The notes under the pieces are model-generated. The model did no database searches and was not told the DNA's origin. It saw only the letters and a list, made by a program, of their open reading frames with translations. A DNA stretch of 64,000 nt from assembly GCA_964473615.1 (NCBI GenBank), contig CAYYPQ010000014.1, positions 2,229 to 66,228 on the forward strand. Direction: 5' to 3'. Positions 454 through 34,715 of the stretch are shown piece after piece. This DNA comes from an uncultured Desulfobacteraceae bacterium (lineage in GTDB: Bacteria; Desulfobacterota; DSM-4660; Desulfatiglandales; Desulfatiglandaceae). The position numbers and the translations under genes were made by a program. Every line of letters starts with the position of its first letter. Position 1 is the stretch's first letter.

Positions 454-1041
454 CTAATCAGAAAGATGGGTGTCAACATAGCGGGCCAGGATTTCAGCAG
501 TTTGCCCAGGGGGGCGGATCAATAGATAATGATCAATAACAGAATGGGCAAGTTCATGGGCCAACATACCCGCCTGCAAATCATCTACACTTACGCAGAT
601 GGTATTTTTTTCATAAGTGTACCAGGCACGAAAATGACATGTGTCGTTATAGATTCTTCTATAGGCGTGGTGCAATTGAAGGCGGTTATGGTAGAGCATC
701 ATAGTCACCTTTTCCATCCTTCTGTGCATGTCGAGAATGTCCTGTACCCTTTCGTATATAGCATCAACCTTTTTTGTGACGACCTCCATTAAGTCATCAA
801 ATTCTTTAGGAGATAATAAGTGGTCAGGCACCCACTTTGCAGGGCCATAGTCTACCTTTGCGTTGAATCTTTCCAGGTCTTCCAAGGATTGATACCGAAT
901 TATGACATGTTTGGTTTCGATGCCCTGCCAGGCGATATCTTCTAATGGTTGTCCATAGAGTCCCCTGCTCAATAGGAACAAGAAAAGGAATACCTGTATG
1001 AAAAGGGGAATGTTTTTTCTGAAAGAATATTTAGCCGGCAT
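454..1041 (-). CDS. Exported hypothetical protein with a C-terminal HExxH motif (possible zinc-metallopeptidase-like protein)
   Basis: 195-aa ORF. It has an N-terminal hydrophobic signal-like segment (IPLFIQVFLFLFLLSRGLYG) and an HELAH motif near the C terminus (MLAHELAHSVIDH). I recognise no specific family. Confidence 0.5.
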   Translation of the reverse strand: MPAKYSFRKNIPLFIQVFLFLFLLSRGLYGQPLEDIAWQGIETKHVIIRYQSLEDLERFNAKVDYGPAKWVPDHLLSPKEFDDLMEVVTKKVDAIYERVQDILDMHRRMEKVTMMLYHNRLQLHHAYRRIYNDTCHFRAWYTYEKNTICVSVDDLQAGMLAHELAHSVIDHYLLIRPPGQTAEILARYVDTHLSD

Positions 1042-1059: not shown

Positions 1060-1623
1060 TCAGATTTCGAAGTTGCTTTCAATTTTGTTATGGAGATGAT
1101 TCAAACCGTCTATCACATCTTTCGGGGTGTTTTGCTCTGAGGCAGTCTTGCGTATGTTGTCCACCTCAGTTTGAATACCCAAGAGCTTATAACGTAAACT
1201 GGAGATCATCATGTTGAGATTATCTGCAATGCCAGTTATTTGATCCTTCCTCCTGAGCCTTACACTATTGGTCAAGTCACCTTCACCGATTTGTTTCAAC
1301 TCCTTTTCAAAACGGAATAGCGGGCCTGCTATTTTGTGCGAAATAAAGAGAGTTACTATTATGGTGGCAATAATTATCAGGCCAAGGGTGATCAGGTTTG
1401 TGTATACAATAACGGGGAGGATAGCGTAACTCGTATCCTTGACAACGAGCCGCGAGTGCTGAAAAGATGCAGTTAAGGTGCTACGGGAAAGAAGGAAAAG
1501 CAGGCCGGTTGATATTATGGCACCAAATAAAAGGACTATGCAAAATTTCAAAATGAACTTGAATTGAAACTCTCTTTTCACAAAAAAATGCCTTCTCTTA
1601 TGTAATCGGTCATCTTGAGCCAT
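1060..1623 (-). CDS. Small membrane protein with a HAMP domain (two TM helices, HAMP, short coiled coil, no output domain)
   Basis: TM1 is FILKFCIVLLFGAIISTGLLFLL and TM2 is AILPVIVYTNLITLGLIIIATIIVTLFI, followed by HAMP-like HKIAGPLFRFEKELKQIGEGDLTNSV. The track ORF starts at 1641. The ATG at 1623 (MAQDD) has an upstream agaggga Shine-Dalgarno sequence and is preferred. Confidence 0.6.
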   Translation of the reverse strand: MAQDDRLHKRRHFFVKREFQFKFILKFCIVLLFGAIISTGLLFLLSRSTLTASFQHSRLVVKDTSYAILPVIVYTNLITLGLIIIATIIVTLFISHKIAGPLFRFEKELKQIGEGDLTNSVRLRRKDQITGIADNLNMMISSLRYKLLGIQTEVDNIRKTASEQNTPKDVIDGLNHLHNKIESNFEI

Positions 1624-1641
1624 TTTTATTCCCTCTTTCAT

Positions 1642-1905
1642 TGTTTGTTGGGAAACCCCCGCTATGCGGGAGGCAGAGAAATTAGTCTATGCCGTACCAA
1701 AAATCAAGGGCATGAAGCGAATCCCGCCCGGCGGGACTAAAATTAATGCAGAGCTTCGCTCTTCTGTTCAGTAAAATAAAATAGAATTCCTTAACTTTAG
1801 GCACTTTGGGCATTTTAGATCACTTTAGTCACTCTGCAAATACGCGAGTAAACAAGCCCCCTCTGGGGGCAAGCCAAAGCTGGGCCATCTGGACCCGGAT
1901 TCTTT
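1642..1905 (+). repeat. Intergenic structured repeat, copy 2 (full length, about 260 bp)
   Basis: Aligns along its whole length with 39721-39980. The shared blocks are gggaaac..ccgctatgcgggaggc.gagaaatta, cccgcc..ggcggga, agagcttcgctcttc, ttccttaactttag.cacttt.ggcattttagatcactttagtcactct, atacgcgag.aaacaagcccc...ctgggggcaagccaaagc, and ctggacccggatt.ttt. It abuts the stop codon of the 1904-2470 gene. Confidence 0.85.
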
Positions 1906-2470
1906 ACTCCTTGTTAAGAAGCTCTTTGTTAATCTTTATATCTGCATCTCTTCTCAGGGCATCAACCCATTCTTTGAGCACTCTACTCTTTTTTTTGTCA
2001 AGGAGTTGTTTGCGAATCCTTTCATGCAGCTCCTCAATGGGAGGAAAGGCCTCCTTTGACCCTTTCATCATGTTATAACGTTTTTGGATCTCATTTTCGG
2101 AGATGTATGTCTTTTTGCTAATATCTTTGGCCTTCAATTCCATCAAGTTCTTTATCAATGTGGATTCCCAATACCTTTCTATGGCCCTGACAAATCTTTC
2201 TTCCCTGTCCAGTTTTAGCCTTTTTGCCTCCTGTATAAGTAGCTCCTTTCTTATAAGCCGTTCCAGAAAATCCTTTTTGGCATCGTCGGTCAATTTAAAA
2301 TCTTCATCCATTTCAAGTTCTGCAGCCATCTCACGCTGAAAAGTATCAAGGGACAGGTTATAATCATTTATCCTGGCCAGAGTTTTGCCATCTTCCGCCT
2401 TTTCCTGAGTGCACGACAAAAGACATGTGCACAAGGACAACAAGATAAAATAAAAGATATTATGTTTCAT
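1904..2470 (-). CDS. Lipoprotein with a SurA N-terminal-like chaperone domain
   Basis: 188 aa. The lipobox LLSC follows a signal sequence (MKHNIFYFILLSLCTCLLSC). The rest is a helical, charged SurA_N/PpiD-like sequence (INDYNLSLDTFQ...FLERLIRKELLIQEAKRLKLD) with no PPIase domain. It is the last gene of the giant-protein operon, 17 nt after the preceding gene. Confidence 0.6.
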   Translation of the reverse strand: MKHNIFYFILLSLCTCLLSCTQEKAEDGKTLARINDYNLSLDTFQREMAAELEMDEDFKLTDDAKKDFLERLIRKELLIQEAKRLKLDREERFVRAIERYWESTLIKNLMELKAKDISKKTYISENEIQKRYNMMKGSKEAFPPIEELHERIRKQLLDKKKSRVLKEWVDALRRDADIKINKELLNKE

Positions 2471-2487
2471 AACAAAACCTCATGCAG

Positions 2488-3240
2488 TCATTTATTTTTT
2501 TTTGAGTAAAGAAAATGGACTTTACACTTGACGCCGGCAGGAATTTGATACCGCGGGTTTGCCAATTCCAGACGTACCCCGAAATTTCCACTTGCTGCGT
2601 CGATAATCTGGTCCACGATGGTCACTGTGGCGATATGCATGCCACCAACAGGTGATTCCGGACTAACCTGCGCTCGTATTCCCTTTTTTATAGTGCCAAA
2701 CCTTTCAAGGGGAACAATTACTTCCACGTAAAGCGGATTGATACTGACAATGGTCAGGATAGAATCTGTCTCTCCCACGTATTCGCCCGGCGCATGGGAT
2801 CGCTTCAACACTATGCCCTGAATTGGACTGTGAATGGTACGCAACTCAAGGGACTCAATTGCCTCTTGAAGTTGCAACTCATTGATCTGTATTTCCGTTT
2901 CCAGTTCATCTTTATCGTGAATAGAGACCAATTGCTTTTTGTAAAGGTCTTCGTTCCTTACCGCTTTGCGCTTACCAAACTCGACACGCGCACGGGCCAG
3001 GTCTACTGCCGCTTTCTCCACTCCCGCTCTCAGTCGAGCGACTACCTGGTCCTTTTTGACTATATCACCCCTCTCAACCATGATCTCTTCCAAGATGCCA
3101 GGGACTTGACTGCTGAGTTCAACTACCTCGCTCGGCTCCAGTATGCCGTCGAGATCATTATGCTCAGCTGCTTGGACGGCTATAAGTGAGTAAAATAGGG
3201 CCAGCAAAGACAAGATAAAAACCCGTAATACCGATACCAT
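2488..3240 (-). CDS. Short HlyD/RND-type periplasmic adaptor (membrane fusion protein)
   Basis: 250 aa with an N-terminal anchor or signal (VFILSLLALFYSLIAVQA). It has lipoyl/barrel-sandwich motifs (VPGILEEIMVERGDIVKKDQVVARL ... IHSPIQGIVLKR) around a short coiled coil. Confidence 0.8.
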   Translation of the reverse strand: MVSVLRVFILSLLALFYSLIAVQAAEHNDLDGILEPSEVVELSSQVPGILEEIMVERGDIVKKDQVVARLRAGVEKAAVDLARARVEFGKRKAVRNEDLYKKQLVSIHDKDELETEIQINELQLQEAIESLELRTIHSPIQGIVLKRSHAPGEYVGETDSILTIVSINPLYVEVIVPLERFGTIKKGIRAQVSPESPVGGMHIATVTIVDQIIDAASGNFGVRLELANPRYQIPAGVKCKVHFLYSKKNK

Positions 3241-3252
3241 AAAGATTTCCTC

Positions 3253-5364
3253 CTATTCGGAACGTCCTGAAAAAGAGAGCATATCTCCTTTATGTTTATC
3301 TATTTTCACCAGTTCGCGGCGCATTCGGGCATGGATACGTTCCATCTTTTTTTGGGCACGGCGAACAGCTAATTTTCCCACTGGGTTTCCCACAGCCAAG
3401 CCAAGTCGCATCAGCCCTAGTGCAAACCATCCAAGGAGACCGGCCCTCCCGCCTTCCAACAAGGGGTCCTCAAGAGAAAGAATTGCCTGGTGAGAGCCGG
3501 GATCTCCCAGCCGGCCGCAGCGGCCGGCCAATTGACGGTCTATACGGCCCGCCTCGTGGCGCTCTGTCAATATGACATGAAGGCCGCCCTTTTCCACAAC
3601 GCCGGGGCCCAGTTTGATATCCGTGCCCCTTCCCGCCATGTTGGTTGCGATCGTAACAGATCGCTCCTCCCCGGCCCGGCCTATGACCGATGCCTCTTCC
3701 TTATCCTGCTTGGCATTCAGGACCTGGTGAGGGATCTTTATTTCGTGGAGTAGACGGCTCATATGTTCCGAGGCGGCAACTGATCGCGTGCCCACCAGCA
3801 CAGGGCGGCCCTTTTCGTTCAGGCGCTGGATTTCCCTCACCACGGCGCGCCATTTGTCATCTGTCGCTCGAAAAATCTTGTCTGAATAACCGATGCGCCT
3901 CAGGGGACGGTGCGTGGGAATCCGGACCACAGGAAGGCCATAAACCGACCAGACTTCACGCCTGACCTCTCTTGCAGTTCCTGTCATGCCAGAGAGCCTC
4001 ATGTAGCGCCTGAAAAAACGCTGGTAGCTCATCTGGGCCAGGGTCTGCATTTCGCTGGTTACCTTACATCCTTCCTTGACCTCAATCAGCTGGTGTAAGC
4101 CTCGCTCCCACGAGCGATCAGGCATCACCCTCCCGGTGAATTCATCAACAATCTGCACCTTATCATCACTGAGCAGATAATGCACGTCCATATGGAAAAG
4201 TTTCTGAGCGGACAGGGCCTTTCTGGCGATTTCTTCCCGTCTGATTGTACCTTTCCACAAGGGCCCCAATGACTTGGAAAGATCGAATATCTTTTTCTTA
4301 CCCCCATCGGTCAATTCAACGTTGCGAGAAGCCATATCAATTCTGTAATCAATCCTATCCTGAAGGCCTTTTACTAACTCCATGGCCTCTTCTAGAAAAC
4401 GCTGCTCCTGCCCGGCATCCCCTGACTTTTTGGATATAAGGAGCGGCGTGCGTGCCTCGTCAATCAATACACTATCCGCTTCGTCAACGATGGCGAAATG
4501 GAGGCCGCGTAGGAGAAGATTCCGCACACGGGCGTTCGTGCCATAAAGATATTCGCTCTGTATCCGTAAGGGGTGCTCGCGATCCTTGAGCTGGATCCTA
4601 TCTCGGAGATAATCAAAGGCGATTTCCTTATTCGTACAATAGGTGATGTCACATCCATATGCGACGCGCCTGTCTTCTGGAAGGACATCATGGGTAACGT
4701 ACCCGACTGTAAGCCCTAATGCCTTGTAGATTGGCCCCATTGACTCGGCATCGCGAGCAGTTAGGTAGTCATTAACCGTTATCACATGGACAGGCATTCC
4801 CGAAAGCGCAGCAGTTCCAGCAGCCAGGGTGGCGGCCAGTGTCTTTCCTTCCCCGGTCTCCATCTCTGCTATCATCCCTTTTAGTAGGGCCCATCCTCCC
4901 ATAACCTGGGTATCAAAATGACGCTGTCCAACGGTCCTTTCCGCTAGTTCGCGAATGAGAGCGAAGGTCTGTGCGACCAATTGCGTTCGAAGCCCTTCCC
5001 TGAGAAGTTGAATGCGCAGGCCTTCAGCCAGACCCTTAATCGCCTCATTGTTCATGTCGCCCAGGGCAGCACCGAAATGGGCTACGCGAGGAACAATGCT
5101 TCTTACCCTTGCGAGGCCGGAGAGCAATGGACGTACCATCCCCCCTGCTAAAGCCCGCACGGTATCGTCTAGTGCGCTGGAGCGAGGGGGCTTTCGCTCA
5201 GGGTGTAGCTCATGGGTAGCTGGAGGATAAATAGATAATGCGGGACGCATGGGTTTTATTCGTTTTATGGGTTTATTCAGAATTTGATATTGCTCAGCCA
5301 CTCTTCGAAGGTAAGTTACACGTTGAATCTTCTGAGCAAGACTCTCCGAATGGCCCGATACCAC
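3253..5364 (-). CDS. SecA-like ATPase paralogue (DEAD motor plus preprotein-binding domain, C-terminal wing/scaffold/tail missing)
   Basis: Near-canonical SecA motifs are present: MIAEMETGEGKTLAATLAA..VHVITVNDYLTARDAE (Walker A region), IVDEADSVLIDEARTPLLIS (DEAD box), LSGMTGTA, TIATNMAGRGTDIKLG and GGLHVILTERHEAGRIDRQLAGRCGRLGDPG. The protein ends about 85 aa after GDPG, giving 703 aa against roughly 900 for housekeeping SecA. It also has an N-terminal extension of about 60 aa. The GTG start at 5364 overlaps the upstream gene by 49 nt; an ATG at 5250 is an alternative start. Confidence 0.85.
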   Translation of the reverse strand: MVSGHSESLAQKIQRVTYLRRVAEQYQILNKPIKRIKPMRPALSIYPPATHELHPERKPPRSSALDDTVRALAGGMVRPLLSGLARVRSIVPRVAHFGAALGDMNNEAIKGLAEGLRIQLLREGLRTQLVAQTFALIRELAERTVGQRHFDTQVMGGWALLKGMIAEMETGEGKTLAATLAAGTAALSGMPVHVITVNDYLTARDAESMGPIYKALGLTVGYVTHDVLPEDRRVAYGCDITYCTNKEIAFDYLRDRIQLKDREHPLRIQSEYLYGTNARVRNLLLRGLHFAIVDEADSVLIDEARTPLLISKKSGDAGQEQRFLEEAMELVKGLQDRIDYRIDMASRNVELTDGGKKKIFDLSKSLGPLWKGTIRREEIARKALSAQKLFHMDVHYLLSDDKVQIVDEFTGRVMPDRSWERGLHQLIEVKEGCKVTSEMQTLAQMSYQRFFRRYMRLSGMTGTAREVRREVWSVYGLPVVRIPTHRPLRRIGYSDKIFRATDDKWRAVVREIQRLNEKGRPVLVGTRSVAASEHMSRLLHEIKIPHQVLNAKQDKEEASVIGRAGEERSVTIATNMAGRGTDIKLGPGVVEKGGLHVILTERHEAGRIDRQLAGRCGRLGDPGSHQAILSLEDPLLEGGRAGLLGWFALGLMRLGLAVGNPVGKLAVRRAQKKMERIHARMRRELVKIDKHKGDMLSFSGRSE

Positions 5365-7460
5365 CGGCTGGCTAGTGGCTCAGGATCATGTTGGAACCGG
5401 ACGAAAACCCTCTCCCCGATCCTGTGTAGTTTTACACCATCCAGGGCTATCTCGAAATGAAAAACCTTTTCAAAGGCCTTGGGCTCCCTTGATTCGAGAG
5501 GGTCTAGTGCAATAGTCCCTCCACCCTTAGTGCTAAGGGCCAGGCTCGGCAGGTCCTTTGATGCCTCTGGCACCTCCCTCACCACTGAGGCCCTGATGGG
5601 GTCGGCAATGTCTTCAGCAAGTCTCGCCTCGACCTTTCGCGTATTATTACGCACCCTATCCACATCCGATTGGGGGACCACAACGCGAACCTTTACCTGC
5701 GAGAAGTCCACCACATAACCCAGGGGGGTCCCACGCCGCAAAAAACGGTGGGGAAGGTTTTGTGCATCGGGCAGGATGAAAATGCCATCAAGAGGGCTCC
5801 TGATAAGTAATTCCTTCTGGCGTTCACGTGCCTGTTCTAACTCTCCTTTGATTCTCTCAATTTCGTCATTGAGTATATCGGCCTCGGTCAGGTCTGTATT
5901 CTGCTTTTCCCTGTGTCTGGCCTCATATTCTCTCAACTGCGATTCCAATACTGTCACTCTCAGGGACAGCTCACGATTTTCGGAAAGCACCAATGGCTCT
6001 CCCTCATGAACCATGCGACCGGATTGGGCCATGATTTGGGTCACAAAACCGTCAGCACCGGCATGAAGCCTGGCATCCTCAGGGGCCCACACCACACCCT
6101 CGGCAGTAGTAAAGGAGGGGACCGGCGCTCTAAAGACCACCGCTGCCAGCGCGCCCATTACCACCATAGCAGTAAAGATGACGCGGCCCCGTTTTTTTTT
6201 CATGTCCGGGTCCGAAAACAGGGTTCGAATCGCCCTGCCAAGGGGAAATACAAGCATGCTAAAAGCGGCCCAGGCCGCAAGCAACAGACCCAGGACGAAG
6301 AATTTCCCGGCAACAAAAAATGCGATTCTCACACTGATATATATGCGGTAGGCGAAGGAGGCAATGGCGAAAAAGCCAAGCCATCCTCTCTCCCCTGGCT
6401 CTGAGGCAGGAGACTCGGCATCTGACACCCCGAAAAGATAGCGCCTCAGGAGATAGCCGATATAGCGATTGCTGCGCGAGGCAAGATTGGGGATTTCCAG
6501 GTAATCTGATAAGATATAATGGCCATCATAGCGCAGGAGGGGATTTCCGTTAAACAACAGAGTGGAGATGCCTGCGATCAACATGACGTTGAAGCAGACT
6601 GTCCGTATGGCGCCTGGTTCAACGTTCACCCAGACGAGCATCGCCAGAGCGGCCAGGAAAAGTTCTACCATTATCCCGGCGGCATCCACCGTCATGCGTT
6701 TACGCTTGTCAAAAAAAGCGGATGAGGCTGACGCATCCACGTAAGGGATGGGCATCAAGACCAGCAACATGATGCCCATTTCATGCACCTCGCCTCCCCA
6801 GCGCTTTACAGAATAGGCATGACCAAATTCGTGGAAGGCCTTAACAAAAGGATAGACCAATCCCAGCACCATCAGGTTTTCAACCGCCAGAACACGATCT
6901 GCTAAATTGGATGAGAGGTCCTGCCAGTGTAAAACGGCGAGTACACAGGCCGCGATCAGCAAACTGACCCATAATAAAATTCCCATCCATCCCAGAAGGG
7001 GGCGGACCAGAAACAGGGACCTTTCCAGGAAACGATCCGGGTCCAAGAGCGGGAATCGGGCAGCCATGGGAGACAACAGGTTCCTCATCCATCGGCCTTT
7101 CCGCACCCTTGCCTCGCGCACCCTGAGTTCCTCGATATCCGGGGGGATATCCGCCTGCAGAACGCCGGTCTGATGGAGCTGGGAAAGAAGTCCGATCACC
7201 TCATCCTGGGTGGGCATATCGTCACCCAGCCTATCGCAGGCGGTCTCCCATATTTCACCCATCGACCGCCGGCCGTTCATGAGACCTATGATGAGATATG
7301 CCTCTGGGGAAAACCTGTGGAACTGTCCCGTCGAATGATCCTGTAAAACAAACCATTCCTTTTGGCGAAATACCTGGCGGTGGATTTGCGCGTGGCCCCG
7401 CAGCCGCGGCCTCATTCCTTCCACCCTGTACCAGACACGGCTGAATAAAGATTTCTCCAT
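5316..7460 (-). CDS. Fusion protein: PqqD/RRE-like N-terminal domain, M50 (site-2-protease family) polytopic metalloprotease, and HlyD-like periplasmic domain
   Basis: 714 aa. HEFGH lies at residues 210-214 (nt 6819-6833) and the second M50 motif is FNGNPLLRYDGHY, with multiple TM helices. The C-terminal half has a coiled coil (LRVTVLESQLREYEARHREKQNTDLTEADILNDEIERIKGELEQARERQK) plus a barrel-sandwich motif (IRSPLDGIFILP). N-terminal residues about 30-100 (FVLQDHSTGQFHRFSPEAYLIIGLMNGRRSMGEIWETACDRLGDDMPTQDEVIGLLSQLHQTGVL) resemble PqqD-type peptide-binding domains. Confidence 0.8.
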   Translation of the reverse strand: MEKSLFSRVWYRVEGMRPRLRGHAQIHRQVFRQKEWFVLQDHSTGQFHRFSPEAYLIIGLMNGRRSMGEIWETACDRLGDDMPTQDEVIGLLSQLHQTGVLQADIPPDIEELRVREARVRKGRWMRNLLSPMAARFPLLDPDRFLERSLFLVRPLLGWMGILLWVSLLIAACVLAVLHWQDLSSNLADRVLAVENLMVLGLVYPFVKAFHEFGHAYSVKRWGGEVHEMGIMLLVLMPIPYVDASASSAFFDKRKRMTVDAAGIMVELFLAALAMLVWVNVEPGAIRTVCFNVMLIAGISTLLFNGNPLLRYDGHYILSDYLEIPNLASRSNRYIGYLLRRYLFGVSDAESPASEPGERGWLGFFAIASFAYRIYISVRIAFFVAGKFFVLGLLLAAWAAFSMLVFPLGRAIRTLFSDPDMKKKRGRVIFTAMVVMGALAAVVFRAPVPSFTTAEGVVWAPEDARLHAGADGFVTQIMAQSGRMVHEGEPLVLSENRELSLRVTVLESQLREYEARHREKQNTDLTEADILNDEIERIKGELEQARERQKELLIRSPLDGIFILPDAQNLPHRFLRRGTPLGYVVDFSQVKVRVVVPQSDVDRVRNNTRKVEARLAEDIADPIRASVVREVPEASKDLPSLALSTKGGGTIALDPLESREPKAFEKVFHFEIALDGVKLHRIGERVFVRFQHDPEPLASRWYRAIRRVLLRRFNV

Positions 7461-7471
7461 CCAAAATTACC

Positions 7472-9358
7472 TTAAGGCCACCAGGACCATGCCTTTAGTC
7501 TGAGCCATTCGGTCAGATTTCTGGTCCAGATGAAGATGAGTTTGCGGCGGTCTACATAAATTTTGCCGACACCTTCCATGCCAGGGCGAAGACGTTCGGA
7601 CACGGACTTCAGGTGGGCCTCAACACGGAAGTAGTTTCGGCCTTCCCGTGCGGTAGATATGGGAGTGATCTTTTCGACCAAGAAGTCGTAGTGATCATTA
7701 GGAAGGGACGACAAGACCAGACTGCCCTGCTGGCCTGTACGTACGTCCGCAATTCGGCGCTCATCGACCTGTACTATGACGCGATATGCATCTAACGGCG
7801 CTAGCTCAAAAAGTACATCACCTTTCTCCACCAGGCCCCCGAGCATTTGGCTGAGATCACCGCTGGCCACAATACCATTAAAGGGTGCCAGGATACGTGT
7901 CCGTTTTAGCTGGCTTTCCACCAGACTGAGCTGAGCGTTGGTCTGGTCAAGCTGTGCCTTGATTATGTTGACATCAGCCCACTTGTGCTTTGCCAGTACC
8001 TCCTGATGCTGTCGACGAAGCTGTCTTCGCTGGCTCAGCCACTTAAGCCTTTGTAGCCTCAGATCACGATCGTCCAAGACACACAGGAGCATATGTTTTT
8101 TTACTAGGTCCCCGGCACGAACATGGGCCTCTTTTATGTAACCATTAAATGGCGCAACCACAACACGGCGTACCGCCGCTTCAAGAGTGGTGTCGGCAGA
8201 TAGCCAATACTTCCCTGTCGCAACGCTAAAAAAAACAATAATGCCTGCCAGGAGCAAGACGATTAACTTTCTGCCAAGGTATTGCAGGCCAAAGAGCCTT
8301 TCCACCTGTGCCTTGAGGGAATCAAGAATTTTGCCTATCAGAAGGCGATCATTTAGGCGCTTGTTCTCCAATGCGGGGGCCACCAGCCCTGCCACGCTGC
8401 GGCAGAATTCAACATCACCGTCGTCAAAAGGCTGATCCTCCGGGCGCTCTAAGGTCAAGGCGCCGTAATAGGTGTTGTTTCCATACAAAGGCAGCGTCAA
8501 GATAGAGCCGGAGCCATGTTGTTTTGCCAGAAATTCGTGGTCTCGGGTAACGATGATTTCGGCATCTGGCGGGGCAGGATGCCGGATTTCCTGTCGCTGA
8601 AACCTGGCTTCGTCCATTGCTCTTTCAATAGAGCGGATCAGATTCATGCGCTTTCCAAACTGAGCACTGTGTGAAACCGTTTTCACACGGATACGATTTC
8701 TGCGTACAAAACCCAGGCTCACGCGGTCGCAATGGAGATGTGTCGCCATTTCAGTTACAAAGGTTATGCTGGCACCCCTAAAATGATCCTCTGCCAGCAC
8801 GGCTGCCAGCATATCAACTGCAGCTTTGAGACCCCCGAGGGCCGTTTCACTCTCTTCCTTTTTACTCTTGCAGAAGAAAAGTTCCAACCATGATTCACCC
8901 CATTGCAATTTATCCATGGCAGATTTCAACTGGGCTTCCTCATCCGTGGCTACTTCAAGGGCAACTACGCCACATAATTCTTCATTGATCAGGATGGGAT
9001 ACGCTAAACCGTAACGAGGCGGGTAAGAGGTATCCATGCCAGGAGGCATGGCCAATTCCACAAGCAGACCACAACGCTCAGCCAGTACTCGTTCCGAGAT
9101 TTCCGCCAGACGCTCAACATCCACCCCTTCTTGGGGCCATTTGGCAACAGGTACGAAGGAATTTGTTTTCAGGTTACCAATTATGAGCACACCCTGAATC
9201 ACCTTGGAGACACGTGAACACTGCAAAGCAAGCCAGCTATGGAAATACTCGTCCCGGCTGCCTGCTCCAGTGAAGCGGGCCCACAACAAAGCGAGGTTTT
9301 CCTCGGAACTGTCTTTAGCCTTTATGGTCTTATTTATGCTCAAGGATCTCAGCACCAA
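7472..9358 (-). CDS. GAF-domain, TM, HlyD-family membrane fusion protein
   Basis: 628 aa. The cytoplasmic N-terminal half is GAF-like (..CGVVALEV..., ..YGALTLERPEDQPFDDGDVEF..). There is a single TM (LIVLLLAGIIVFFSVATG). The HlyD part has a lipoyl motif (APFNGYIKEAHVRAGDLVKKHMLLCVLDD), a long coiled coil and APFNGIVASGDL. The start is TTG in the ORF track, and the gene ends 11 nt before the next gene. Confidence 0.8.
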   Translation of the reverse strand: MVLRSLSINKTIKAKDSSEENLALLWARFTGAGSRDEYFHSWLALQCSRVSKVIQGVLIIGNLKTNSFVPVAKWPQEGVDVERLAEISERVLAERCGLLVELAMPPGMDTSYPPRYGLAYPILINEELCGVVALEVATDEEAQLKSAMDKLQWGESWLELFFCKSKKEESETALGGLKAAVDMLAAVLAEDHFRGASITFVTEMATHLHCDRVSLGFVRRNRIRVKTVSHSAQFGKRMNLIRSIERAMDEARFQRQEIRHPAPPDAEIIVTRDHEFLAKQHGSGSILTLPLYGNNTYYGALTLERPEDQPFDDGDVEFCRSVAGLVAPALENKRLNDRLLIGKILDSLKAQVERLFGLQYLGRKLIVLLLAGIIVFFSVATGKYWLSADTTLEAAVRRVVVAPFNGYIKEAHVRAGDLVKKHMLLCVLDDRDLRLQRLKWLSQRRQLRRQHQEVLAKHKWADVNIIKAQLDQTNAQLSLVESQLKRTRILAPFNGIVASGDLSQMLGGLVEKGDVLFELAPLDAYRVIVQVDERRIADVRTGQQGSLVLSSLPNDHYDFLVEKITPISTAREGRNYFRVEAHLKSVSERLRPGMEGVGKIYVDRRKLIFIWTRNLTEWLRLKAWSWWP

Positions 9359-9445
9359 ATGGTTGAGTTATGGCAAGTATGCGTACCGATTGCATCGTAG
9401 GCCATAGTTGGCCAGCTAGGTGGAAGGTAGTGTCAGAAAGTAATT

Positions 9446-9805
9446 CTAGGCCTTGGTCCCTGGCGGTTTTTCGCCTGACTCGATACGAAGTTCACCGAAG
9501 CGGGACTCATATTCGCGGAGGATATTGTTGAGTAATAGGGATAGGCGCTTGGCCGCATAGGGGTTCAGAATAACGCGATCGCTCAATTCAACGGTCAGCG
9601 CCTCCTGACTGGTATGCCAGCTTTGGTTGGTACCAAAAAGTAAGGTGACTTCTTCCCTAGTGCTGGATACGTTAACCACGTTGGCATAGGTGCTCTTCAT
9701 CTTGGAGCCATCCCAACGTATTACCGGCCTTGAACTTTTAGCATCCTGTTCAGCCTCATTTTTTGCCTCATTCTTTTCCTTGTTATCTCCGGGTGTCTGC
9801 GCCAT
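9446..9805 (-). CDS. DUF3467-like small protein
   Basis: YANVVNVSSTREEVTLLFG...RVILNPYAAKRLSLLLNNILREYESRFG matches my memory of the DUF3467 pattern. The ATG at 9805 is preceded by a perfect AGGAGG 7 nt upstream (ataggaggacaaactATG). It overlaps the last 23 nt of the giant ORF. The track start at 9823 is less likely. Confidence 0.65.
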   Translation of the reverse strand: MAQTPGDNKEKNEAKNEAEQDAKSSRPVIRWDGSKMKSTYANVVNVSSTREEVTLLFGTNQSWHTSQEALTVELSDRVILNPYAAKRLSLLLNNILREYESRFGELRIESGEKPPGTKA

Positions 9806-12800
9806 AGTTTGTCCTCCTATCATTAAAGTTTAAAAAGGGGAAGCCGATAAATGGCAAATCACCGGTTTGGGATCCGGATCTGCTAGAGTGTCCACCTTCC
9901 TTCAACTGGCCGTTATGCCAGCGTAGGAAGCGCCGTTTATCTTCTTCAAGGTTTAACCTCTGGAATGCCTCTCGATTCAAAATCATCTTGTCATCGCTAC
10001 GCCGCGAAGAGACCGCACTCCATCCCATAAATCCGGCAACCATGGCCCCTAATCCGAGGTCCTCACGAGGCTTGCCCTGGTCTGAAGGATCGTGTCGATG
10101 GGATTCTAATTGCCCGGCGGGTATTTTTAACACCTGATCAGGATAGATGACATCCGGATCAGTTATTTCCGGGTTGGCTTCCCAAATCTTCCGCCATAAA
10201 AGGGGATCACCAAATTTTTCTCTTGAGATGTCCCATAGGGTATCACCTTTCTCGACCTTGTATTCTTTATATTGGATCCCTTTGGTGTAGCTTTCAGGTT
10301 CAGTGTAGCCCTCAGGCTTGGCAGCGGCCTCCGTAAGATATGAACCGGGATGGGAGGGGATCTGGGGTAGGCCAGCCCCGCGTGTGCCAGCCACAAAGGG
10401 CTGTATGCCAGCGCCTTTAGCGGGCAGGATGCCGCCGATAAAGGCAAGCCCCGGCGTCTGCCACCCTGGTATAAAGGGTGATCTGTATAGGGAGAAGAGA
10501 GTATTGGCGATGGTGTCAAGGTTGTACTGTCCGAGTCGGACAACGCTTACGACCTTGCCGCCTTCAATGATAGCGCGGGCATAATCACCGATAATGAAAT
10601 CATCAGTCAGATTGCCCACAAAGACATCATTGCCGAAACCACCAAACATGATGTCGTTATTGGTTCCTCCATCAAGAAAATCGTTACCACCGATGAAGGG
10701 GTCAATAGTTTCGATTACGCTCGGTGTGCCGTTGCTCAGGGTCACCTTGCCGCCGTCGCCCAGAATGATATCGTCACCGGCGCCGCCTGCGACAGTGTCG
10801 TCCTTTGCACCGGCTATGATGATATCATTGCCGGATCCACTAGCTATAACGTCATTGCCGCCCACGTTTGCATCAACGGTAAATACTGTGCCTAGTTCGC
10901 GGATGATTCCATCGGTCTTATCGCCGGGGCCACCGCCCCCGAGGACCGTGACCTCCTGAAGATTCTCATTAAGATAATGGACTCGGCCGCGATCGCCGAA
11001 GATAATGTCGTCTCCGCTGCCTCCAGAAATGGTGTCGTTTCCTTTGCCACCAAAGATGATCAGTGGCAGGCTCGATGAGGAGGCGTCTACAGAGTCATTG
11101 TCGCTCACTGGGTCTAGGGAATCGTCAGGGCCCTGCAGGTTGAGCACAAAGAATCCATCGGTTCCGGCGTCGAGAGAGACGTTGCCACGGTCATCACCAA
11201 GACCTGTATTCAAGGTGGTGATGGTACGGACACCATCTCGCTTGTGGGTACTGGCAACCGTAAAGGTGTCTTCCCCGTAGCCGCTCCACAAGGTGATCCC
11301 TCCGGCAAAGTTACCGTTGGTCAGGTCTGTTTTATAGGTGATATCTGCCGGCGCCAATCCCTGGATCATGGCCTTCGTAATCAAAATGTCGCTATCGCCT
11401 TGGTTGCTATCAGAATCGCTAATCATCAATAGATGCCCGCCCTGGCCAGCGTCTATGTTCAATTGGCCTAAGATATCGTCAAGATTGCCTTCAAGGAAAT
11501 CGGTGGAAGTATCGAGGTCTAAATCGGCACCCGACGATACATAGATCCTTTCATTGCCATCATGTAAATCAATGTTGGTGACGGCGGCAGTTCCCTGAAC
11601 GTTGAAGACATCGTCCCCTGAACCAAGGCTGATATTCAGTTCTTCTACGTTCTTATATTGAACACCCATTGCCATGTCAAGGCCGGTGAGCCTGGTGTTG
11701 TTGAGTACTCCAACGTTGGCATCTGTATCGCCGGTATCATCAATATTTACGATATCATCATTATCACCGCCATCAATGGTCAATAGTCCAGCGATATCAT
11801 CCACCACGCCGCCACTAAGCGGTGAAAGGCTGCCCACATTGATTGTATCACTGCCGCCTGATGTGTGAAGCGAGGTCGTACCCTCATGTGTTGCCCTGAC
11901 GTTGAAGATATCGCTGCCCGAACCAAGGTCAATATTCATCTCTTCCATGTCATGATAAACAAGACCGCCGGGATAATCCTTTCCTTTGATCGTTGTCCCT
12001 GTCGACATATTGAGACCGGTCAGTGTGCTACTGCCCAGCCAACCCTCATCGTCGGTTTCGCTATTCGTGTTGTATGCATTTAGCGTGTCATGGGAAAGTG
12101 TCTCATCCAGTTGTGCAATCAATTCATCACCGCCTAGTGACGGGTCATCTTCTCCTTCCCCTGGCATGTTAACCGGATCACCTACTGGCCGTGCCCCTTC
12201 GCCATCGCCACTGCCACCTTCAATTCTGAGCGGTCCCCTAATTGAGCCAAGGGAGTTTGTTATGGTGAAATCAACATCCTCATCTGTAACGATGATATCT
12301 TTAAGGTTGACATTGTCAGGCACACCCCCGACGTGGATGGTGTCGTTGCCGTAGTTGCCTAGCAAGACAGTGTTGACAATAGGGCTTGTTGAGAGCACAA
12401 AAATCTGGTCATCGCCAATATACGTGTCGACAATAAGGGTTTCTACATATTCATAGTTTGTGGTCAGGCCGGCGCCAAAGACACCTTTGTCAGTAACAGC
12501 AATGGCATCATCAAACTCTGTGCCGATTAATATTAACCTATCCTCTCCTTCGCCGCCGTTTATGTTCACAGGTGCATTTACCACATACTTGATGGTATCT
12601 GCTCCCTTACCACCTGTGATTGTTGTACCTGCCTGTGCGAATGATCTGACATCAAATTTGTCGTCACCGTCTTGCCCGTTTAATTGAAGTTCCTCCCGAT
12701 TGCGGTAGACCGTGATATCGTCGTCACCGTCACCGGCATTGACCGTTGTGGCAGCGCTGACGCCGTTGCTGAGAAAGCCAAGTGTTGTTTCCACTGTCTC

Positions 12801-33236: not shown

Positions 33237-33329
33237 TACTTGCTCACTCTCTTAAAGGGTTAGTTCGGGTGAGGTCCTAATAATTTTTGCATGCCTCTGG
33301 TATGTTGCTATACGATTGTATAGCTGTGA

Positions 33330-34715
33330 TTATTTCAACCACTGATTGACCATGACAAGATCCTCCCTATTCAAGGTCCCCACTGCCTGTCTTAGACGTA
33401 TGCTGTTAAGGATGTAGTCATATCGCGCCTGTGCGTAGTCCTGCTTTGCCAGGTAGAGGTCTCTCTCCGCATCCAGGACAGCAAGACTGGTATACAGTCC
33501 CGATTTGAAGCCATATTGCTTGGCCTTTAACGCAAGCTCCTGGGACACAACGGACTGCTCCAAGGCCTCCACTCTACTTATCGCACTTTTTACACCAAGA
33601 TACGCCGCACGGGCCTGACGTTTGGCCGCACGGACCTGCCGTTCCATATCTTGCAACGTCGCTTGATAGCGATGACGAGCTTCCCTTGTTCGAGAACTCA
33701 CATACCCGCCTTGGTAAATGGGTAAATTTAGTTGCAAAAGGGCCTCGCTCGTCTCTACTTCACTACCACCCCCGAAAAGTGTGCCATTCGTGTCCCGATT
33801 ATTAAATCGTCCCACCAGGTCAAGGGTAGGGAAATGCCCTGATCTCTGGCGTTTCACTTCCCTCTGGGCCACCTCCACCGCATGACGCTGGACCTCAATT
33901 GCGAGGTTTTGCCTTAACGCCGCCTTGATCCACAGCTCAACATCGGCGGGATCGGGACTCACCAATGGCAGTTTGTCTTTAAGGTTGGAGAGCGTGCCCC
34001 CGAATTCTCCGCAGACCTCCCACAATGCCTGAAGGGAATCGTCCAGGTCGTTTTCCGCCTCAATCCTATGGGCCTTCACTGAGGCAAGGCGTGCCTTTGC
34101 GTCGTGAAGGTCAGTGATCGGGGCCAGGCCCATACCGTATCGGCCCTTGGCAAGCTCAAAATGAAGTTCTACCGCGGCCTGTTCCGCTTGAGCAAAGGCA
34201 AGCTTGTCCTGGGCGGACAGGGCCTCCAGATACAACTGCAAGGTCCTCAGCATCAGGTCCTGTCTGGCCATCTCAAACTCTACGTCGGAACGTTTGATCT
34301 CCTCCTTTGCCTGTCCCACACGCACTATGGATGAATAGTTGAAGACCGGCTGTGTTAACGTCAGTGTATAAGTCTTGGTGGAAAAATTCGTTTTTCCAGT
34401 GGCAAAGACACTATTGTCGCTGCTGACAATATCCTGTCTGGTTTCGATATATTCGCCTTGAGCGGCAAGAGTTGGGAGCAGGCCAGAATATGCCTGGGTA
34501 AGGGACTCGCGAGAGGCCTCATGTTCGTACTTGGCCCTTTGAAACGGTGGGTCATGCCTCTGGGCAAGTCCATATAGCTCCATGAGATTTTCCGCCAGCG
34601 CGAATCGGCTTGGAAATACAAGGCAAAATAACAGGGCTAACCATGCCGAATGTTTAATAAAAGGACTTATGGCCCTGCTTGATCTGGTAGTAGGTAAAAT
34701 ATAGCACTGTTTCAT
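33330..34715 (-). CDS. TolC-family outer-membrane channel protein
   Basis: 461 aa with a signal peptide (WLALLFCLVFPSRFALAENL). It has two OEP-type repeats with characteristic motifs (LMELYGLAQRHDPPFQRAKYEHEAS..., ..YQATLQDMERQVRAAKRQARAAYLGV..). It is the first gene of the operon, 93 nt upstream of the giant ORF. Confidence 0.85.
   Translation of the reverse strand: MKQCYILPTTRSSRAISPFIKHSAWLALLFCLVFPSRFALAENLMELYGLAQRHDPPFQRAKYEHEASRESLTQAYSGLLPTLAAQGEYIETRQDIVSSDNSVFATGKTNFSTKTYTLTLTQPVFNYSSIVRVGQAKEEIKRSDVEFEMARQDLMLRTLQLYLEALSAQDKLAFAQAEQAAVELHFELAKGRYGMGLAPITDLHDAKARLASVKAHRIEAENDLDDSLQALWEVCGEFGGTLSNLKDKLPLVSPDPADVELWIKAALRQNLAIEVQRHAVEVAQREVKRQRSGHFPTLDLVGRFNNRDTNGTLFGGGSEVETSEALLQLNLPIYQGGYVSSRTREARHRYQATLQDMERQVRAAKRQARAAYLGVKSAISRVEALEQSVVSQELALKAKQYGFKSGLYTSLAVLDAERDLYLAKQDYAQARYDYILNSIRLRQAVGTLNREDLVMVNQWLK

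What the first reader, a model, noticed from the sequence alone, without database searches (positions are those of the whole stretch)
3253..5364. Truncated SecA paralogue embedded in an MFP/TolC operon
**Seen**
- All nucleotide-binding and preprotein-binding signatures of SecA are near-canonical: GEGKT, DEAD-type VDEADSVLIDEARTPL, MTGTA, NMAGRGTDI, TERHE..RID.QL.GR.GR.GDPG, and a PPXD-length insert between the DEAD and MTGTA motifs.
- The protein stops about 85 residues after GDPG. It therefore lacks most of the helical scaffold, the helical wing domain and the C-terminal Zn/SecB-binding tail.
- It carries an extra N-terminal segment of about 60 aa.

**Inference**
- It retains the motor and the polypeptide clamp but has lost the parts that dock onto SecYEG and SecB. 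That fits re-wiring to a different membrane partner, most plausibly the adjacent M50-HlyD protein with which it overlaps translationally.
- It is very unlikely to be the housekeeping SecA.
Basis: partly seen in the sequence, partly recalled or inferred. Interest (0 to 1): 0.7.

Follow-up and report, generated by a model that had tools for sequence, protein, structure and literature searches.

The report
Short SecA motor in giant-adhesin secretion operon
This gene encodes a naturally shortened second copy of the protein-export motor SecA; it sits in a conserved operon with three periplasmic adaptor proteins, an outer-membrane channel and a 7,817-residue adhesin-like protein. The gene family was described by computer analysis in 2015, but it has never been tested experimentally.

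Summary
ORF 3253..5364 (-) encodes a SecA-type motor with an intact NBD1-PPXD-NBD2 and invariant ATPase motifs. It stops 80 residues after GDPG, in the middle of the long scaffold helix, and lacks the wing domain, the two-helix finger and the Zn tail.

The truncation is native. More than 150 clusters at 50% identity have the same 650-690 aa length and conserved termini. The next gene starts 12 nt after the stop. A related contig carries both a short SecA and a canonical 952-aa SecA.

The conserved start is ATG 5250 (665 aa). The N-terminal extension is therefore about 28-36 aa, not 60, and the claimed overlap with the upstream gene disappears in this window.

The family and its cassette (GAF-HlyD, M50-HlyD, short SecA, small HlyD, sometimes OEP, no ABC transporter) were described by Kamneva et al. 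2015 (PMC4452313). They proposed the same mechanism and left the substrate unknown.

New here:
- The cassette tracks giant RTX proteins with an N-terminal LEPR-XLL motif across three phyla.
- The M50-HlyD has an invariant protease site and a PqqD/RRE-like domain.
- A DUF3467 gene travels with the giant gene.

Verdict: a new member of a known, uncharacterised kind.

The parts
3253..5250 (-). Short SecA ('secondary SecA_DEAD domain protein'), 665 aa from the conserved ATG. The open frame continues upstream to GTG 5364 (703 aa).
   Evidence: Pfam and NCBIfam; PDB alignment; family alignment A1; AF2 model with pLDDT 77; Foldseek TM 0.77 to SecY-bound SecA 6itc/5eul.
3952..5115 (-). NBD1 (SecA_DEAD) with Walker A GEGKT (4840-4854) and the DEAD box (4441-4488). 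The PPXD insert lies at 4081-4404.
   Evidence: These motifs are invariant in 40 family members.
3445..3906 (-). NBD2 (P-loop_SecA) with NMAGRGTDI, TERHE and GRCGRLGDPG.
3256..3390 (-). C-terminal helix, equal to the first half of the SecA scaffold helix, plus the family-specific tail LSFSGRSE. The wing domain, two-helix finger and Zn tail are absent.
   Evidence: AF2 helix 621-655; alignment to E. coli and canonical SecAs; conserved tail residues D651, F660, G662, E665.
5316..7460 (-). PqqD/RRE-like domain + M50 intramembrane metalloprotease (about 7 TM segments) + HlyD periplasmic adaptor, 714 aa.
   Evidence: HExxH (H210, E211, H214) and NxNPLxRxD (N304-D312) are invariant in 25 orthologues. 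Of the 25, 25 hit Peptidase_M50, 23 hit HlyD_3 and 15 hit PqqD.
7472..9358 (-). GAF + single TM + HlyD adaptor, 628 aa.
   Evidence: conserved neighbour.
2488..3240 (-). Small HlyD/RND_mfp adaptor with an N-terminal anchor or signal, 250 aa. Its Shine-Dalgarno sequence (TAGGAGG) overlaps the SecA stop codon.
   Evidence: conserved neighbour.
9446..9805 (-). DUF3467 protein (119 aa from M7). Its start overlaps the giant gene's 3' end by 23 nt.
   Evidence: It is present next to the giant gene in most Desulfobacterota loci and in D. acetoxidans.
9783..33236 (-). Giant 7,817-aa putative substrate, with DUF4347, RTX repeats and a C-terminal LysM domain.
33084..33146 (-). LEPR-XLL motif (residues 31-51, IFEALESRILLSADLVIPPHD) of the giant protein; putative N-terminal leader.
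   Evidence: NF012209 scores 30 bits against a cut-off of 17. The same motif is above cut-off in the cassette-adjacent large proteins of L028, L046 and L053.
33330..34715 (-). TolC-like outer-membrane factor (OEP), 461 aa; first gene of the operon.
   Evidence: The same OEP-then-giant order occurs in L066. An OEP gene sits directly upstream of the short SecA in Verrucomicrobia.
1904..2470 (-). SurA_N-like putative lipoprotein (188 aa); last gene before a terminator-like hairpin. It is not conserved in related loci.
1856..1870 (-). Terminator-like GC hairpin followed by a T-rich tail; probable operon end (consensus match only).
34814..34843 (-). Sigma-70-like promoter match (11 of 12, TG-extended) upstream of the OEP gene (consensus match only).

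Best explanation
**What it is**
- The gene encodes a member of the 'secondary SecA_DEAD' family.
- This is an ancient, horizontally spread SecA paralogue reduced to the motor (NBD1-PPXD-NBD2) plus half of the scaffold helix.

**Proposed function**
- It most likely serves as the cytoplasmic ATPase of a type-I-like, envelope-spanning export apparatus.
- The other parts of that apparatus are three adaptor-type proteins (GAF-HlyD, RRE-M50-HlyD and a small HlyD) and a TolC-like channel.
- The cargo is the neighbouring giant LEPR-XLL/RTX protein.

**Proposed sequence of events (all steps inferred)**
1. The N-terminal LEPR-XLL leader of the giant protein is captured by the PqqD/RRE-like cytoplasmic domain of the M50-HlyD protein, by the SecA-like clamp, or by both.
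2. The intramembrane M50 protease removes or processes the leader.
3. The SecA-like motor feeds the unfolded chain, N-terminus first, through an inner-membrane pore. That pore would be built from the polytopic M50 domains and the adaptor TM helices.
4. The chain passes into the HlyD/TolC duct.
5. Extracellular Ca2+-driven folding of the RTX repeats prevents back-sliding.
6. The GAF domain may gate the system. DUF3467 may act as a cargo-specific accessory.

**What is shown**
- Domain content.
- Conservation of the catalytic residues.
- The native truncation.
- Paralogy to the canonical SecA.
- Conserved synteny with the adaptors, the OEP gene and LEPR-XLL giant proteins.
- Absence of an ABC transporter in the operon.
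For: **Identity and truncation**
- Domain, motif and structure evidence.
- The family is large and uniform in length.

**Paralogy**
- A canonical SecA lies on the same contig as a short SecA in L057.
- Short and canonical SecAs form a 100% bootstrap bipartition.

**Synteny**
- The core GAF-HlyD / M50-HlyD / short SecA / HlyD occurs in about 40 loci of Desulfobacterota and Alpha-, Beta- and Gammaproteobacteria.
- It occurs in rearranged order in Verrucomicrobia.
- An OEP gene is in the window operon and directly upstream of the short SecA in Verrucomicrobia.
- No ABC domain is found in any operon gene.

**Cargo link**
- ORFs running off the locus end sit next to the cassette in at least 17 loci; most carry many GxGxD (RTX-like) motifs. 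RTX repeats were confirmed in 7 of 10 C-termini tested.
- Giant genes of 17,800 aa and 10,790 aa lie next to the cassette in L001 and L002.
- LEPR-XLL is above the curated cut-off in 4 of 4 loci where the neighbour's N-terminus is visible: the window, L028, L046 and L053.

**Protease and leader reader**
- HExxH and NxNPLxRxD are invariant.
- 15 of 25 orthologues hit PqqD, and the protein resembles the daptide RiPP leader protease NF041824 with E 2e-44.

**Literature**
- Kamneva et al. 2015 reached the ATPase-plus-M50-pore hypothesis independently.
Against: - There is no experimental evidence of any kind.
- M50 proteases are not known to form protein-conducting pores.
- Canonical SecA lacking the C-terminal third (the N68 fragment) hydrolyses ATP but does not translocate (established knowledge; the N68 structure 5k9t appears among the fold matches).
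- A Pseudomonas solani locus links a DUF4347 protein to M50-HlyD, two HlyD genes and an OEP gene. It has no short SecA within 10 kb either side, so the motor may be dispensable or encoded elsewhere. That protein has a LEPR-like N-terminus that scores below the NF012209 cut-off.
- Planctomycete short SecAs lack adjacent adaptor genes.
- Six loci with adequate flank (L009, L014, L017, L025, L026, L051) show no RTX-rich giant ORF beside the cassette.
- An ABC transporter elsewhere in the genome cannot be excluded.
Confidence: 0.6

Rival explanations
1. The short SecA is a cytosolic holdase, unfoldase or targeting factor. It keeps the giant nascent chain export-competent and hands it to the canonical SecYEG or to a conventional ABC-type T1SS encoded elsewhere. 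The three HlyD proteins and TolC serve only the periplasm-to-outside step or the ABC system.
For: - It retains the PPXD and the clamp, which bind preproteins and contact SecY in canonical complexes.
- The cargo carries RTX repeats typical of ABC-dependent T1SS substrates.
- A SecA-less version of the M50-HlyD/HlyD/OEP module exists in P. solani.
- Planctomycete members stand alone.
Against: - The LEPR-XLL N-terminus is not a classical Sec signal peptide: its hydrophobic stretch is interrupted by E, R, S and D (sequence).
- The two-helix finger and half of the scaffold helix are missing. In canonical SecA these are needed for SecY-coupled translocation (established knowledge).
- No ABC gene lies in any of the examined cassettes (Kamneva 2015).
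- The gene is tightly embedded between adaptor genes, with spacers of 4-12 nt in relatives.
Confidence: 0.2
2. The cassette matures and exports a small RiPP-like peptide or some other non-giant cargo. The giant adhesin gene is merely a neighbour in a cell-surface island.
For: - The M50 domain is most similar to RiPP leader peptidases: daptide NF041824 and YydH/LiaK NF058609.
- It carries a PqqD/RRE-like domain.
- Radical SAM and O-methyltransferase genes, and tandem small DUF3467 genes, sit beside the cassette in several loci.
- Six loci show no giant ORF in the available flank.
Against: - Giant LEPR-XLL/RTX genes accompany the cassette in Desulfobacterota, Gammaproteobacteria and Verrucomicrobia, despite gene-order rearrangement.
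- The window operon has no RiPP tailoring enzymes.
- DUF3467 stays with the giant gene even where the cassette is absent.
- A SecA-class motor is built to thread long polypeptides (established knowledge).
Confidence: 0.12
3. The gene is a decayed or mis-assembled housekeeping secA: a frameshift, a pseudogene or a chimeric contig.
For: - The ORF is shorter than any canonical SecA and scores below every NCBIfam SecA/SecA2 cut-off.
- Occasional family members are visibly frameshifted: L051 and P0384.
Against: - At least 150 cluster representatives share the same length, with conserved N- and C-terminal motifs.
- No trace of the missing domains exists in any frame of the window.
- The downstream gene starts 12 nt after the stop with its own Shine-Dalgarno sequence.
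- All ATPase residues are invariant.
- A canonical SecA coexists on contig L057.
Confidence: 0.02

Closest known systems
Secondary SecA_DEAD domain proteins and their T1SS-related locus (Kamneva, Poudel & Ward, PLoS One 2015, PMC4452313)
   Same: - SecA_DEAD and PPXD are present, with the wing-scaffold domain lost.
- The clade is separate from the canonical SecA.
- The gene is co-encoded, in the same order as the Methylobacterium extorquens AM1 operon META1p2402-2399, with a GAF-HlyD protein, a Peptidase_M50-HlyD protein and a HlyD/biotin-lipoyl protein.
- OEP is sometimes adjacent, and there is no ABC transporter.
- The hypothesis is the same: SecA_DEAD is the ATPase and M50 is the membrane pore.
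   Different: - The paper's main text as searched does not name Desulfobacterota or Deltaproteobacteria members.
- It leaves the cargo and biological role 'completely unknown'.
- The window operon adds the OEP gene, a LEPR-XLL giant RTX protein and DUF3467 in a single transcription unit.
- The RRE-like domain and the invariant protease site were not reported there.
Housekeeping SecA (E. coli, B. subtilis; PDB 1M6N, 3DIN, 5EUL, 6ITC)
   Same: - The NBD1-PPXD-NBD2 architecture and all ATPase motifs are shared.
- Identity is 39-43% over about 570-620 aligned residues.
- The predicted fold superposes best on SecY-bound, substrate-engaged SecA, with TM 0.77.
   Different: - The distal half of the scaffold helix, the helical wing domain, the two-helix finger (IRA1) and the C-terminal linker with Zn finger are all absent.
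- It has a conserved 28-36-aa N-terminal extension and a family-specific C-terminal tail.
- It scores below the equivalog cut-offs.
SecA-N68, the engineered C-terminal truncation of E. coli SecA (PDB 5K9T)
   Same: The domain content is nearly the same: the DEAD motor plus the PPXD, without the C-terminal regulatory third (Foldseek hit).
   Different: - N68 is a laboratory fragment that is translocation-incompetent with deregulated ATPase (established knowledge).
- The protein here is a natural, conserved gene product with its own termini and dedicated neighbours.
SecA2 of Actinobacteria and Firmicutes (PDB 4UAQ, 6SXH)
   Same: It is a second, non-housekeeping SecA paralogue dedicated to a subset of cargo. 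Mycobacterial SecA2 also lacks the wing domain (established knowledge).
   Different: - SecA2 keeps the full scaffold helix and the two-helix finger, and works with SecYEG or SecY2.
- The window protein scores far below the SecA2 cut-offs.
- It occurs in diderm bacteria, next to adaptor and OMF genes.
Classical type I secretion (HlyB-HlyD-TolC) and peptidase-containing ABC transporters (PCATs)
   Same: - The layout is MFP plus OMF with RTX-repeat cargo.
- As in PCATs, a leader-directed protease is physically fused to the export machinery.
   Different: - There is no ABC transporter.
- The ATPase is SecA-type.
- There are three distinct adaptor paralogues.
- The protease is an M50 intramembrane metalloprotease rather than a C39 cysteine protease.
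- The putative signal is N-terminal (LEPR-XLL) rather than C-terminal.
SecA_DEAD + PPXD modules fused inside giant proteins of Omnitrophota and Actinobacteria (West-Roberts et al., bioRxiv 10.1101/2023.11.21.568195)
   Same: A SecA motor without the scaffold/wing domain is associated with giant proteins. A role in exporting the giant protein itself was proposed, and canonical SecA is present in the same genomes.
   Different: - In those cases the SecA-like module is a domain of the giant protein, and the neighbours are T2SS-like.
- Here it is a free-standing 665-aa protein in an adaptor/OMF cassette.
- Relatedness between the two groups was not tested.

Membership tests
Secondary SecA_DEAD domain protein family (Kamneva et al. 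2015) | SecA_DEAD and SecA_PP_bind are present; SecA_SW is absent or only a fragment. | tested here: met
   Pfam. The alignment ends in the middle of the scaffold helix.
Secondary SecA_DEAD domain protein family (Kamneva et al. 2015) | Phylogenetically separate from the canonical SecA, which coexists in the genome. | tested here: met
   - NJ bipartition short versus canonical, 100/100 bootstraps.
- A canonical 952-aa SecA lies on the same contig as a short SecA in L057.
- Not testable for the window's own genome.
Secondary SecA_DEAD domain protein family (Kamneva et al. 2015) | Co-encoded with Peptidase_M50-HlyD, GAF-HlyD and HlyD/biotin-lipoyl proteins, with no ABC transporter and with OEP sometimes adjacent. 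| tested here: met
   Window operon; about 40 related loci.
Housekeeping SecA (NCBIfam TIGR00963 / NF009538) | Score at or above the equivalog cut-off. | tested here: not met
   626 bits against a cut-off of 814, and 604 bits against a cut-off of 800.
Housekeeping SecA (NCBIfam TIGR00963 / NF009538) | Helical scaffold and wing domains (PF07516) and the two-helix finger. | tested here: not met
   - No SecA_SW hit.
- tblastn with a canonical SecA finds nothing for residues 710-952 in the window.
- Alignment.
Housekeeping SecA (NCBIfam TIGR00963 / NF009538) | DEAD-type motor with the PPXD inserted in NBD1 and catalytic motifs intact. | tested here: met
Accessory SecA2 (TIGR03714, TIGR04221, TIGR04397, NF012136) | Score at or above the family cut-off, with SecY2/Asp genes or a Gram-positive context. 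| tested here: not met
   The protein scores 419-566 bits against cut-offs of 725-1100. The neighbours are HlyD-type adaptors and OEP.
Classical type I secretion system | An ABC transporter (HlyB-type) as the inner-membrane energiser. | tested here: not met
   No ABC domain occurs in any operon gene or in related cassettes. A copy elsewhere in the genome cannot be checked.
Classical type I secretion system | A membrane fusion protein and a TolC-family outer-membrane factor. | tested here: met
   Three HlyD-domain proteins and an OEP protein at 33330..34715.
Classical type I secretion system | Cargo with RTX repeats and an uncleaved C-terminal secretion signal. | tested here: inconclusive
   RTX repeats are present. 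The C-terminus carries LysM, and the conserved signal-like element is the N-terminal LEPR-XLL. A C-terminal signal cannot be recognised by sequence.
LEPR-XLL domain-containing giant proteins (NCBIfam NF012209), for the putative cargo | An N-terminal LEPR-XLL motif scoring above the curated cut-off in a very large protein. | tested here: met
   30 bits against a cut-off of 17, at residues 31-51 of a 7,817-aa protein.
Site-2 protease / M50 family, for the partner protein | HExxH and the NxxPxxxxDG-type third-ligand motif within TM segments. | tested here: met
   H210, E211, H214 and N304-D312 are invariant in 25 orthologues. TM segments are predicted. All 25 members hit PF02163, but below the gathering score in the window protein.

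The most novel reading that the evidence does not exclude
The cassette is a distinct envelope-spanning secretion pathway that has not been recognised experimentally.
- Giant adhesin-like proteins carry an N-terminal LEPR-XLL leader.
- That leader is read by an RRE-like domain and cut by an intramembrane M50 protease fused to a periplasmic adaptor.
- A free-standing SecA-type motor then drives the chain, N-terminus first, through an adaptor/TolC duct.
- The pathway would be independent of both SecYEG and any ABC transporter. It would be a SecA-powered counterpart of type I secretion.
Probability: 0.35. Interest if true: 0.85.

Novelty: new member of a known kind. Interest (0 to 1): 0.55.

Why it matters
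**The open question**
- All well-studied tripartite exporters are energised by ABC, RND or MFS transporters (review PMC8277102).
- All well-studied SecA proteins work on SecYEG.
- A SecA motor that has shed its SecY-coupling elements and lives among adaptor and TolC genes would be a fourth way to power a trans-envelope duct.
- It would also be a route for moving proteins of 8,000-18,000 residues.

**State of knowledge**
- The idea has existed since a single 2015 comparative-genomics paper, with no known cargo and no experiments.
- No follow-up was found in the held literature.

**What this window adds**
- Channel, candidate cargo with a recognisable leader motif, accessory protein, three adaptors and motor all lie in one compact transcription unit.
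- That turns an orphan cassette into a directly testable cargo-machine pair.
- It suggests what the unexplained LEPR-XLL motif on giant proteins, and DUF3467, might be for.

Tried and rejected
1. **DUF3467 as a SecB-like chaperone.**
   - A profile search against PDB sequences found nothing.
   - The AF2 model was poor, with pLDDT 53, and its Foldseek matches were noise.
   - hhalign against E. coli SecB gave probability 0.4%.
   - The idea is not supported; the structural test was inconclusive.
2. **C-terminal LysM as a conserved periplasmic retention module for N-to-C export.** LysM is specific to the window. Related giant proteins end in RTX, Tcp10_C-like or M10-like regions.
3. **Rosetta-stone fusions of short SecA with a partner.** P0384 (993 aa) is a frameshift read-through into the HlyD gene. 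P0322 (1240 aa) looks like a chimera with a canonical SecA C-terminus. Neither is usable evidence.
4. **Organism identification.** Exact-sequence look-ups gave no name. Close relatives are Desulfobacterales/Thermodesulfobacteriota MAGs.
5. **Reciprocal search from the giant protein's N-terminus**.
   - It returned mostly short partial proteins.
   - It confirmed the OEP-then-giant arrangement in L066.
   - It uncovered a SecA-less variant in P. solani.
6. **Literature searches on DUF3467, DUF4347, LEPR-XLL, 'SecA-like' and 'truncated SecA'** found nothing on the cassette. The sixth combination found Kamneva et al. 2015.
7. **Promoter and terminator scans** gave counts no higher than shuffled sequence. 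Only the positions of two sites are suggestive.


Full report
**1. The observation**

ORF 3253..5364 on the minus strand translates to 703 aa.
- Pfam finds SecA_DEAD (residues 84-471, E 2.7e-101), the preprotein cross-linking domain SecA_PP_bind (321-428, E 7.8e-26) and P-loop_SecA (E 1.9e-55). It finds no SecA_SW and no SEC-C.
- NCBIfam matches every SecA and SecA2 model, but only over about the first 600 of their 760-810 positions and always below the curated cut-off (for example 626 bits against 814).
- phmmer against PDB aligns residues 103-689 to B. subtilis SecA 35-603 of 841, with E 3e-133.
- The protein ends 80 residues after GDPG.

**2. The truncation is native**

- The best 120 database relatives (54-74% identical) are almost all 660-670 aa.
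- In an exhaustive search of 1.84 billion cluster representatives, the best 150 are nearly all 650-690 aa.
- In an alignment of 40 members, both ends are conserved: the N-terminal 'PPATxxLRPER' and the extreme C-terminal 'GDxLSFSGRxE'. All ATPase residues are invariant.
- tblastn with a canonical SecA finds only residues 63-709 in the window, and nothing for 710-952 in any frame.
- The SecA stop codon TAG is part of the Shine-Dalgarno sequence TAGGAGG of the next gene, which starts 12 nt later.
- Aligned to E. coli SecA, the family stops about 12 residues after the RKxLLxxD motif, roughly at residue 650-660 in the middle of the long scaffold helix.
- The proteobacterial, verrucomicrobial and planctomycete subclades are cut at the same place but carry different short tails.
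- An AlphaFold2 model has mean pLDDT 77.
  - It shows the motor, the PPXD and a terminal helix at 621-655.
  - It superposes on SecA structures, best (TM 0.77) on SecY-bound, substrate-engaged SecA.
  - It also matches the engineered SecA-N68 fragment.

**3.

- In many relatives the maximal ORF is only 664-668 aa and begins at the equivalent of M39. The likely start here is therefore ATG 5250.
- The extension over E. coli SecA is then about 28-36 aa, not about 60.
- A 65-nt spacer, not a 49-nt overlap, follows the M50-HlyD stop. In relatives the two genes often abut or overlap by 4-8 nt.
- The 628-aa neighbour is GAF-HlyD, not TolC. The TolC-like OEP gene is at 33330..34715.

**4. It is a paralogue**

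- Contig L057, from a Desulfobacteraceae MAG, carries a 664-aa short SecA (61% identical to the window protein over the trimmed alignment).
- About 6 kb away the same contig carries a 952-aa SecA with SecA_SW and SEC-C.
- Canonical SecAs of Desulfobacteraceae, E. coli and Peptacetobacter are 54-60% identical to each other.
- All short SecAs are only 37-46% identical to canonical ones.
- The short-versus-canonical bipartition has 100/100 NJ bootstrap support.
- The window's own genome could not be searched.

**5. Context in the window**

One minus-strand unit contains the following genes:

| Gene | Coordinates |
|---|---|
| OEP/TolC | 33330..34715 |
| 7,817-aa protein | 9783..33236 |
| DUF3467 | 9446..9805 |
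| GAF-TM-HlyD | 7472..9358 |
| PqqD-like-M50-HlyD | 5316..7460 |
| short SecA | 3253..5250 |
| small HlyD | 2488..3240 |
| SurA_N-like lipoprotein | 1904..2470 |

- The DUF3467 gene overlaps the end of the giant gene by 23 nt.
- A promoter-like site lies upstream of the OEP gene, and a terminator-like hairpin follows the last gene. These are consensus matches only.
- No operon gene has an ABC, RND or MFS domain.

**6. Conservation of the context**

- Fifty-four genome loci and several metagenome loci were analysed with a six-frame ORF and phmmer pipeline.
- The core GAF-HlyD / M50-HlyD / short SecA / small HlyD is present in about 40 loci from Desulfobacterota and Alpha-, Beta- and Gammaproteobacteria.
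- In Verrucomicrobia the order is rearranged to OEP - short SecA - HlyD - GAF-HlyD - M50-HlyD.
- Gemmataceae and Zavarzinella have short SecAs without these neighbours.
- In at least 17 loci an ORF running off the locus end sits directly beside the cassette, and most of these ORFs carry many GxGxD (RTX-like) motifs.
- Gene calls give 17,800 aa and 10,790 aa for two of these giants.
- Seven of ten C-termini tested carry RTX repeats.

**7. The candidate cargo and its signal**

- The window giant carries the NCBIfam LEPR-XLL motif at residues 31-51 (30 bits, cut-off 17). DUF4347, RTX repeats and a C-terminal LysM follow.
- In the three other loci where the N-terminus of the cassette-adjacent large protein is visible, LEPR-XLL is again above cut-off. 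These are L028 (Gammaproteobacteria) and L046 and L053 (Verrucomicrobia).
- The motif region is not a classical Sec signal peptide.
- Starting from the giant's N-terminus, a related contig again shows the OEP-then-DUF4347 gene order (L066).

**8. The partner proteins**

- The M50-HlyD protein has a cytoplasmic N-domain, about seven hydrophobic segments and a periplasmic HlyD part.
- HExxH and NxNPLxRxD are invariant in 25 orthologues.
- Of those 25, 25 hit Peptidase_M50, 23 hit HlyD_3 and 15 hit PqqD, with a best E of 1.6e-6.
- Its closest curated relatives are RiPP leader peptidases: daptide NF041824 (E 2e-44) and YydH/LiaK.
- This suggests leader recognition and cleavage coupled to export, analogous to peptidase-containing ABC transporters.
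- DUF3467 accompanies the giant gene even in Desulfuromonas acetoxidans, where no cassette lies within 10 kb.

**9. Prior knowledge**

- After several empty searches, one search found Kamneva, Poudel & Ward (PLoS One 2015, PMC4452313).
- They described 'secondary SecA_DEAD domain proteins' that have lost the wing-scaffold domain.
- The proteins are unrelated to the canonical SecA of the same genomes and lie in a conserved locus. That locus holds Peptidase_M50-HlyD, GAF-HlyD and HlyD/biotin-lipoyl proteins, sometimes OEP, and no ABC transporter.
- They proposed that SecA_DEAD supplies ATPase activity and that the M50 protein forms the pore. They stated that the biological role is completely unknown.
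- Neither RTX nor the DUFs found here appears in their text, and 'substrate' occurs only in a general description of T1SS.
- No follow-up was found.
- NCBIfam release 20 has no dedicated model for any cassette protein.
- West-Roberts et al. 2023 describe an analogous loss of the scaffold/wing in SecA modules fused inside giant Omnitrophota proteins.

**10. Evidence that tempers the model**

- A Pseudomonas solani locus joins a DUF4347 protein to M50-HlyD, two HlyD genes and OEP, with no short SecA within 10 kb. That protein's LEPR-like N-terminus scores below the NF012209 cut-off.
- Planctomycete members are solitary.
- Six loci show no giant gene in the available flank.
- M50 proteases are not known pores.
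- Engineered SecA lacking its C-terminal third does not translocate through SecYEG (established knowledge).
- Nothing here is experimental.

**11. Verdict**

- The family and the cassette are already in the literature as a bioinformatic prediction, so this is a new member of a known, uncharacterised kind.
- The added value is the cargo link (LEPR-XLL giant RTX proteins across three phyla), the RRE-like domain with an intact protease site in the M50-HlyD partner, and the DUF3467 association.
- Together these make the 2015 hypothesis experimentally testable.

Noticed in passing
window 9783..33236 (-), especially 33084..33146: A 7,817-aa protein with an N-terminal LEPR-XLL motif (NF012209), DUF4347, RTX repeats and a C-terminal LysM. 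LEPR-XLL large proteins also flank the cassette in Gammaproteobacteria (L028) and Verrucomicrobia (L046, L053).
   Followed up: yes
window 9446..9805 (-); L059 10001..10324: A DUF3467 gene overlaps the giant gene's stop by 23 nt. In Desulfuromonas acetoxidans a DUF3467 gene directly follows a 12,388-aa giant gene with no cassette within 10 kb. Tests for SecB-likeness were negative or inconclusive.
   Followed up: partly
L067 (Pseudomonas solani AP023081.1) 1395..18901: A SecA-less variant of the module. It holds HlyD (260 aa), a HlyD-like protein (439 aa), M50-HlyD (698 aa), tailoring-type genes (Asp/Arg hydroxylase, sulfotransferases), a DUF4347 protein with an 'ALEPRMMFDG' N-terminus, and OEP.
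   Followed up: partly
L001-L004, L009, L013, L022, L023 (flanks of the cassette): Radical SAM genes, O-methyltransferase genes and 370-690-aa proteins with an N-terminal DUF3467 domain recur beside the cassette in Syntrophaceae- and Geobacter-type loci. This hints at modification of the cargo or of an accessory protein.
   Followed up: no
L046 6114..9677; L047 2269..4986; L053 6948..9728: Verrucomicrobial loci encode unusually long (905-1187 aa) OEP-domain proteins directly upstream of the short SecA. The OEP domain occupies only part of each protein.
   Followed up: no
L051 9932..11976; proteins P0384 and P0322: - The short SecA in L051 is split into three ORFs of 422, 95 and 156 aa, by frameshifts or as a pseudogene.
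- P0384 is a frameshift read-through of short SecA into the HlyD gene.
- P0322 joins a short-SecA-like N-part to a canonical SecA C-part and is possibly chimeric.
   Followed up: partly
L037-L041, L054 (Gemmataceae, Zavarzinella formosa DSM 19928): Planctomycete short SecAs (672-709 aa) carry their own C-terminal tail (LLGDLGADPFVD). They sit among unrelated metabolic genes, without adaptor neighbours.
   Followed up: partly
window about 33,000-35,400: GC skew changes sign, cumulative skew reaches its minimum, and gene orientation switches from minus (left) to plus (right) around the OEP promoter region. This may only reflect divergent transcription; no dnaA gene or DnaA boxes were looked for.
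   Followed up: no
window 33071..33095 (-): A perfect 11-bp-stem palindrome (CCCCCTCATGA-TTT-TCATGAGGGGG) lies inside the giant gene, about 140 nt after its start codon and just past the LEPR-XLL coding part. The scan flagged it as terminator-like.
   Followed up: no
window 1060..1641 (-) and 454..1041 (-): Two small genes lie downstream of the operon terminator. One is a two-TM HAMP-domain protein (193 aa); the other is a 195-aa secreted or anchored protein with no family match. Neither is conserved in related loci.
   Followed up: partly
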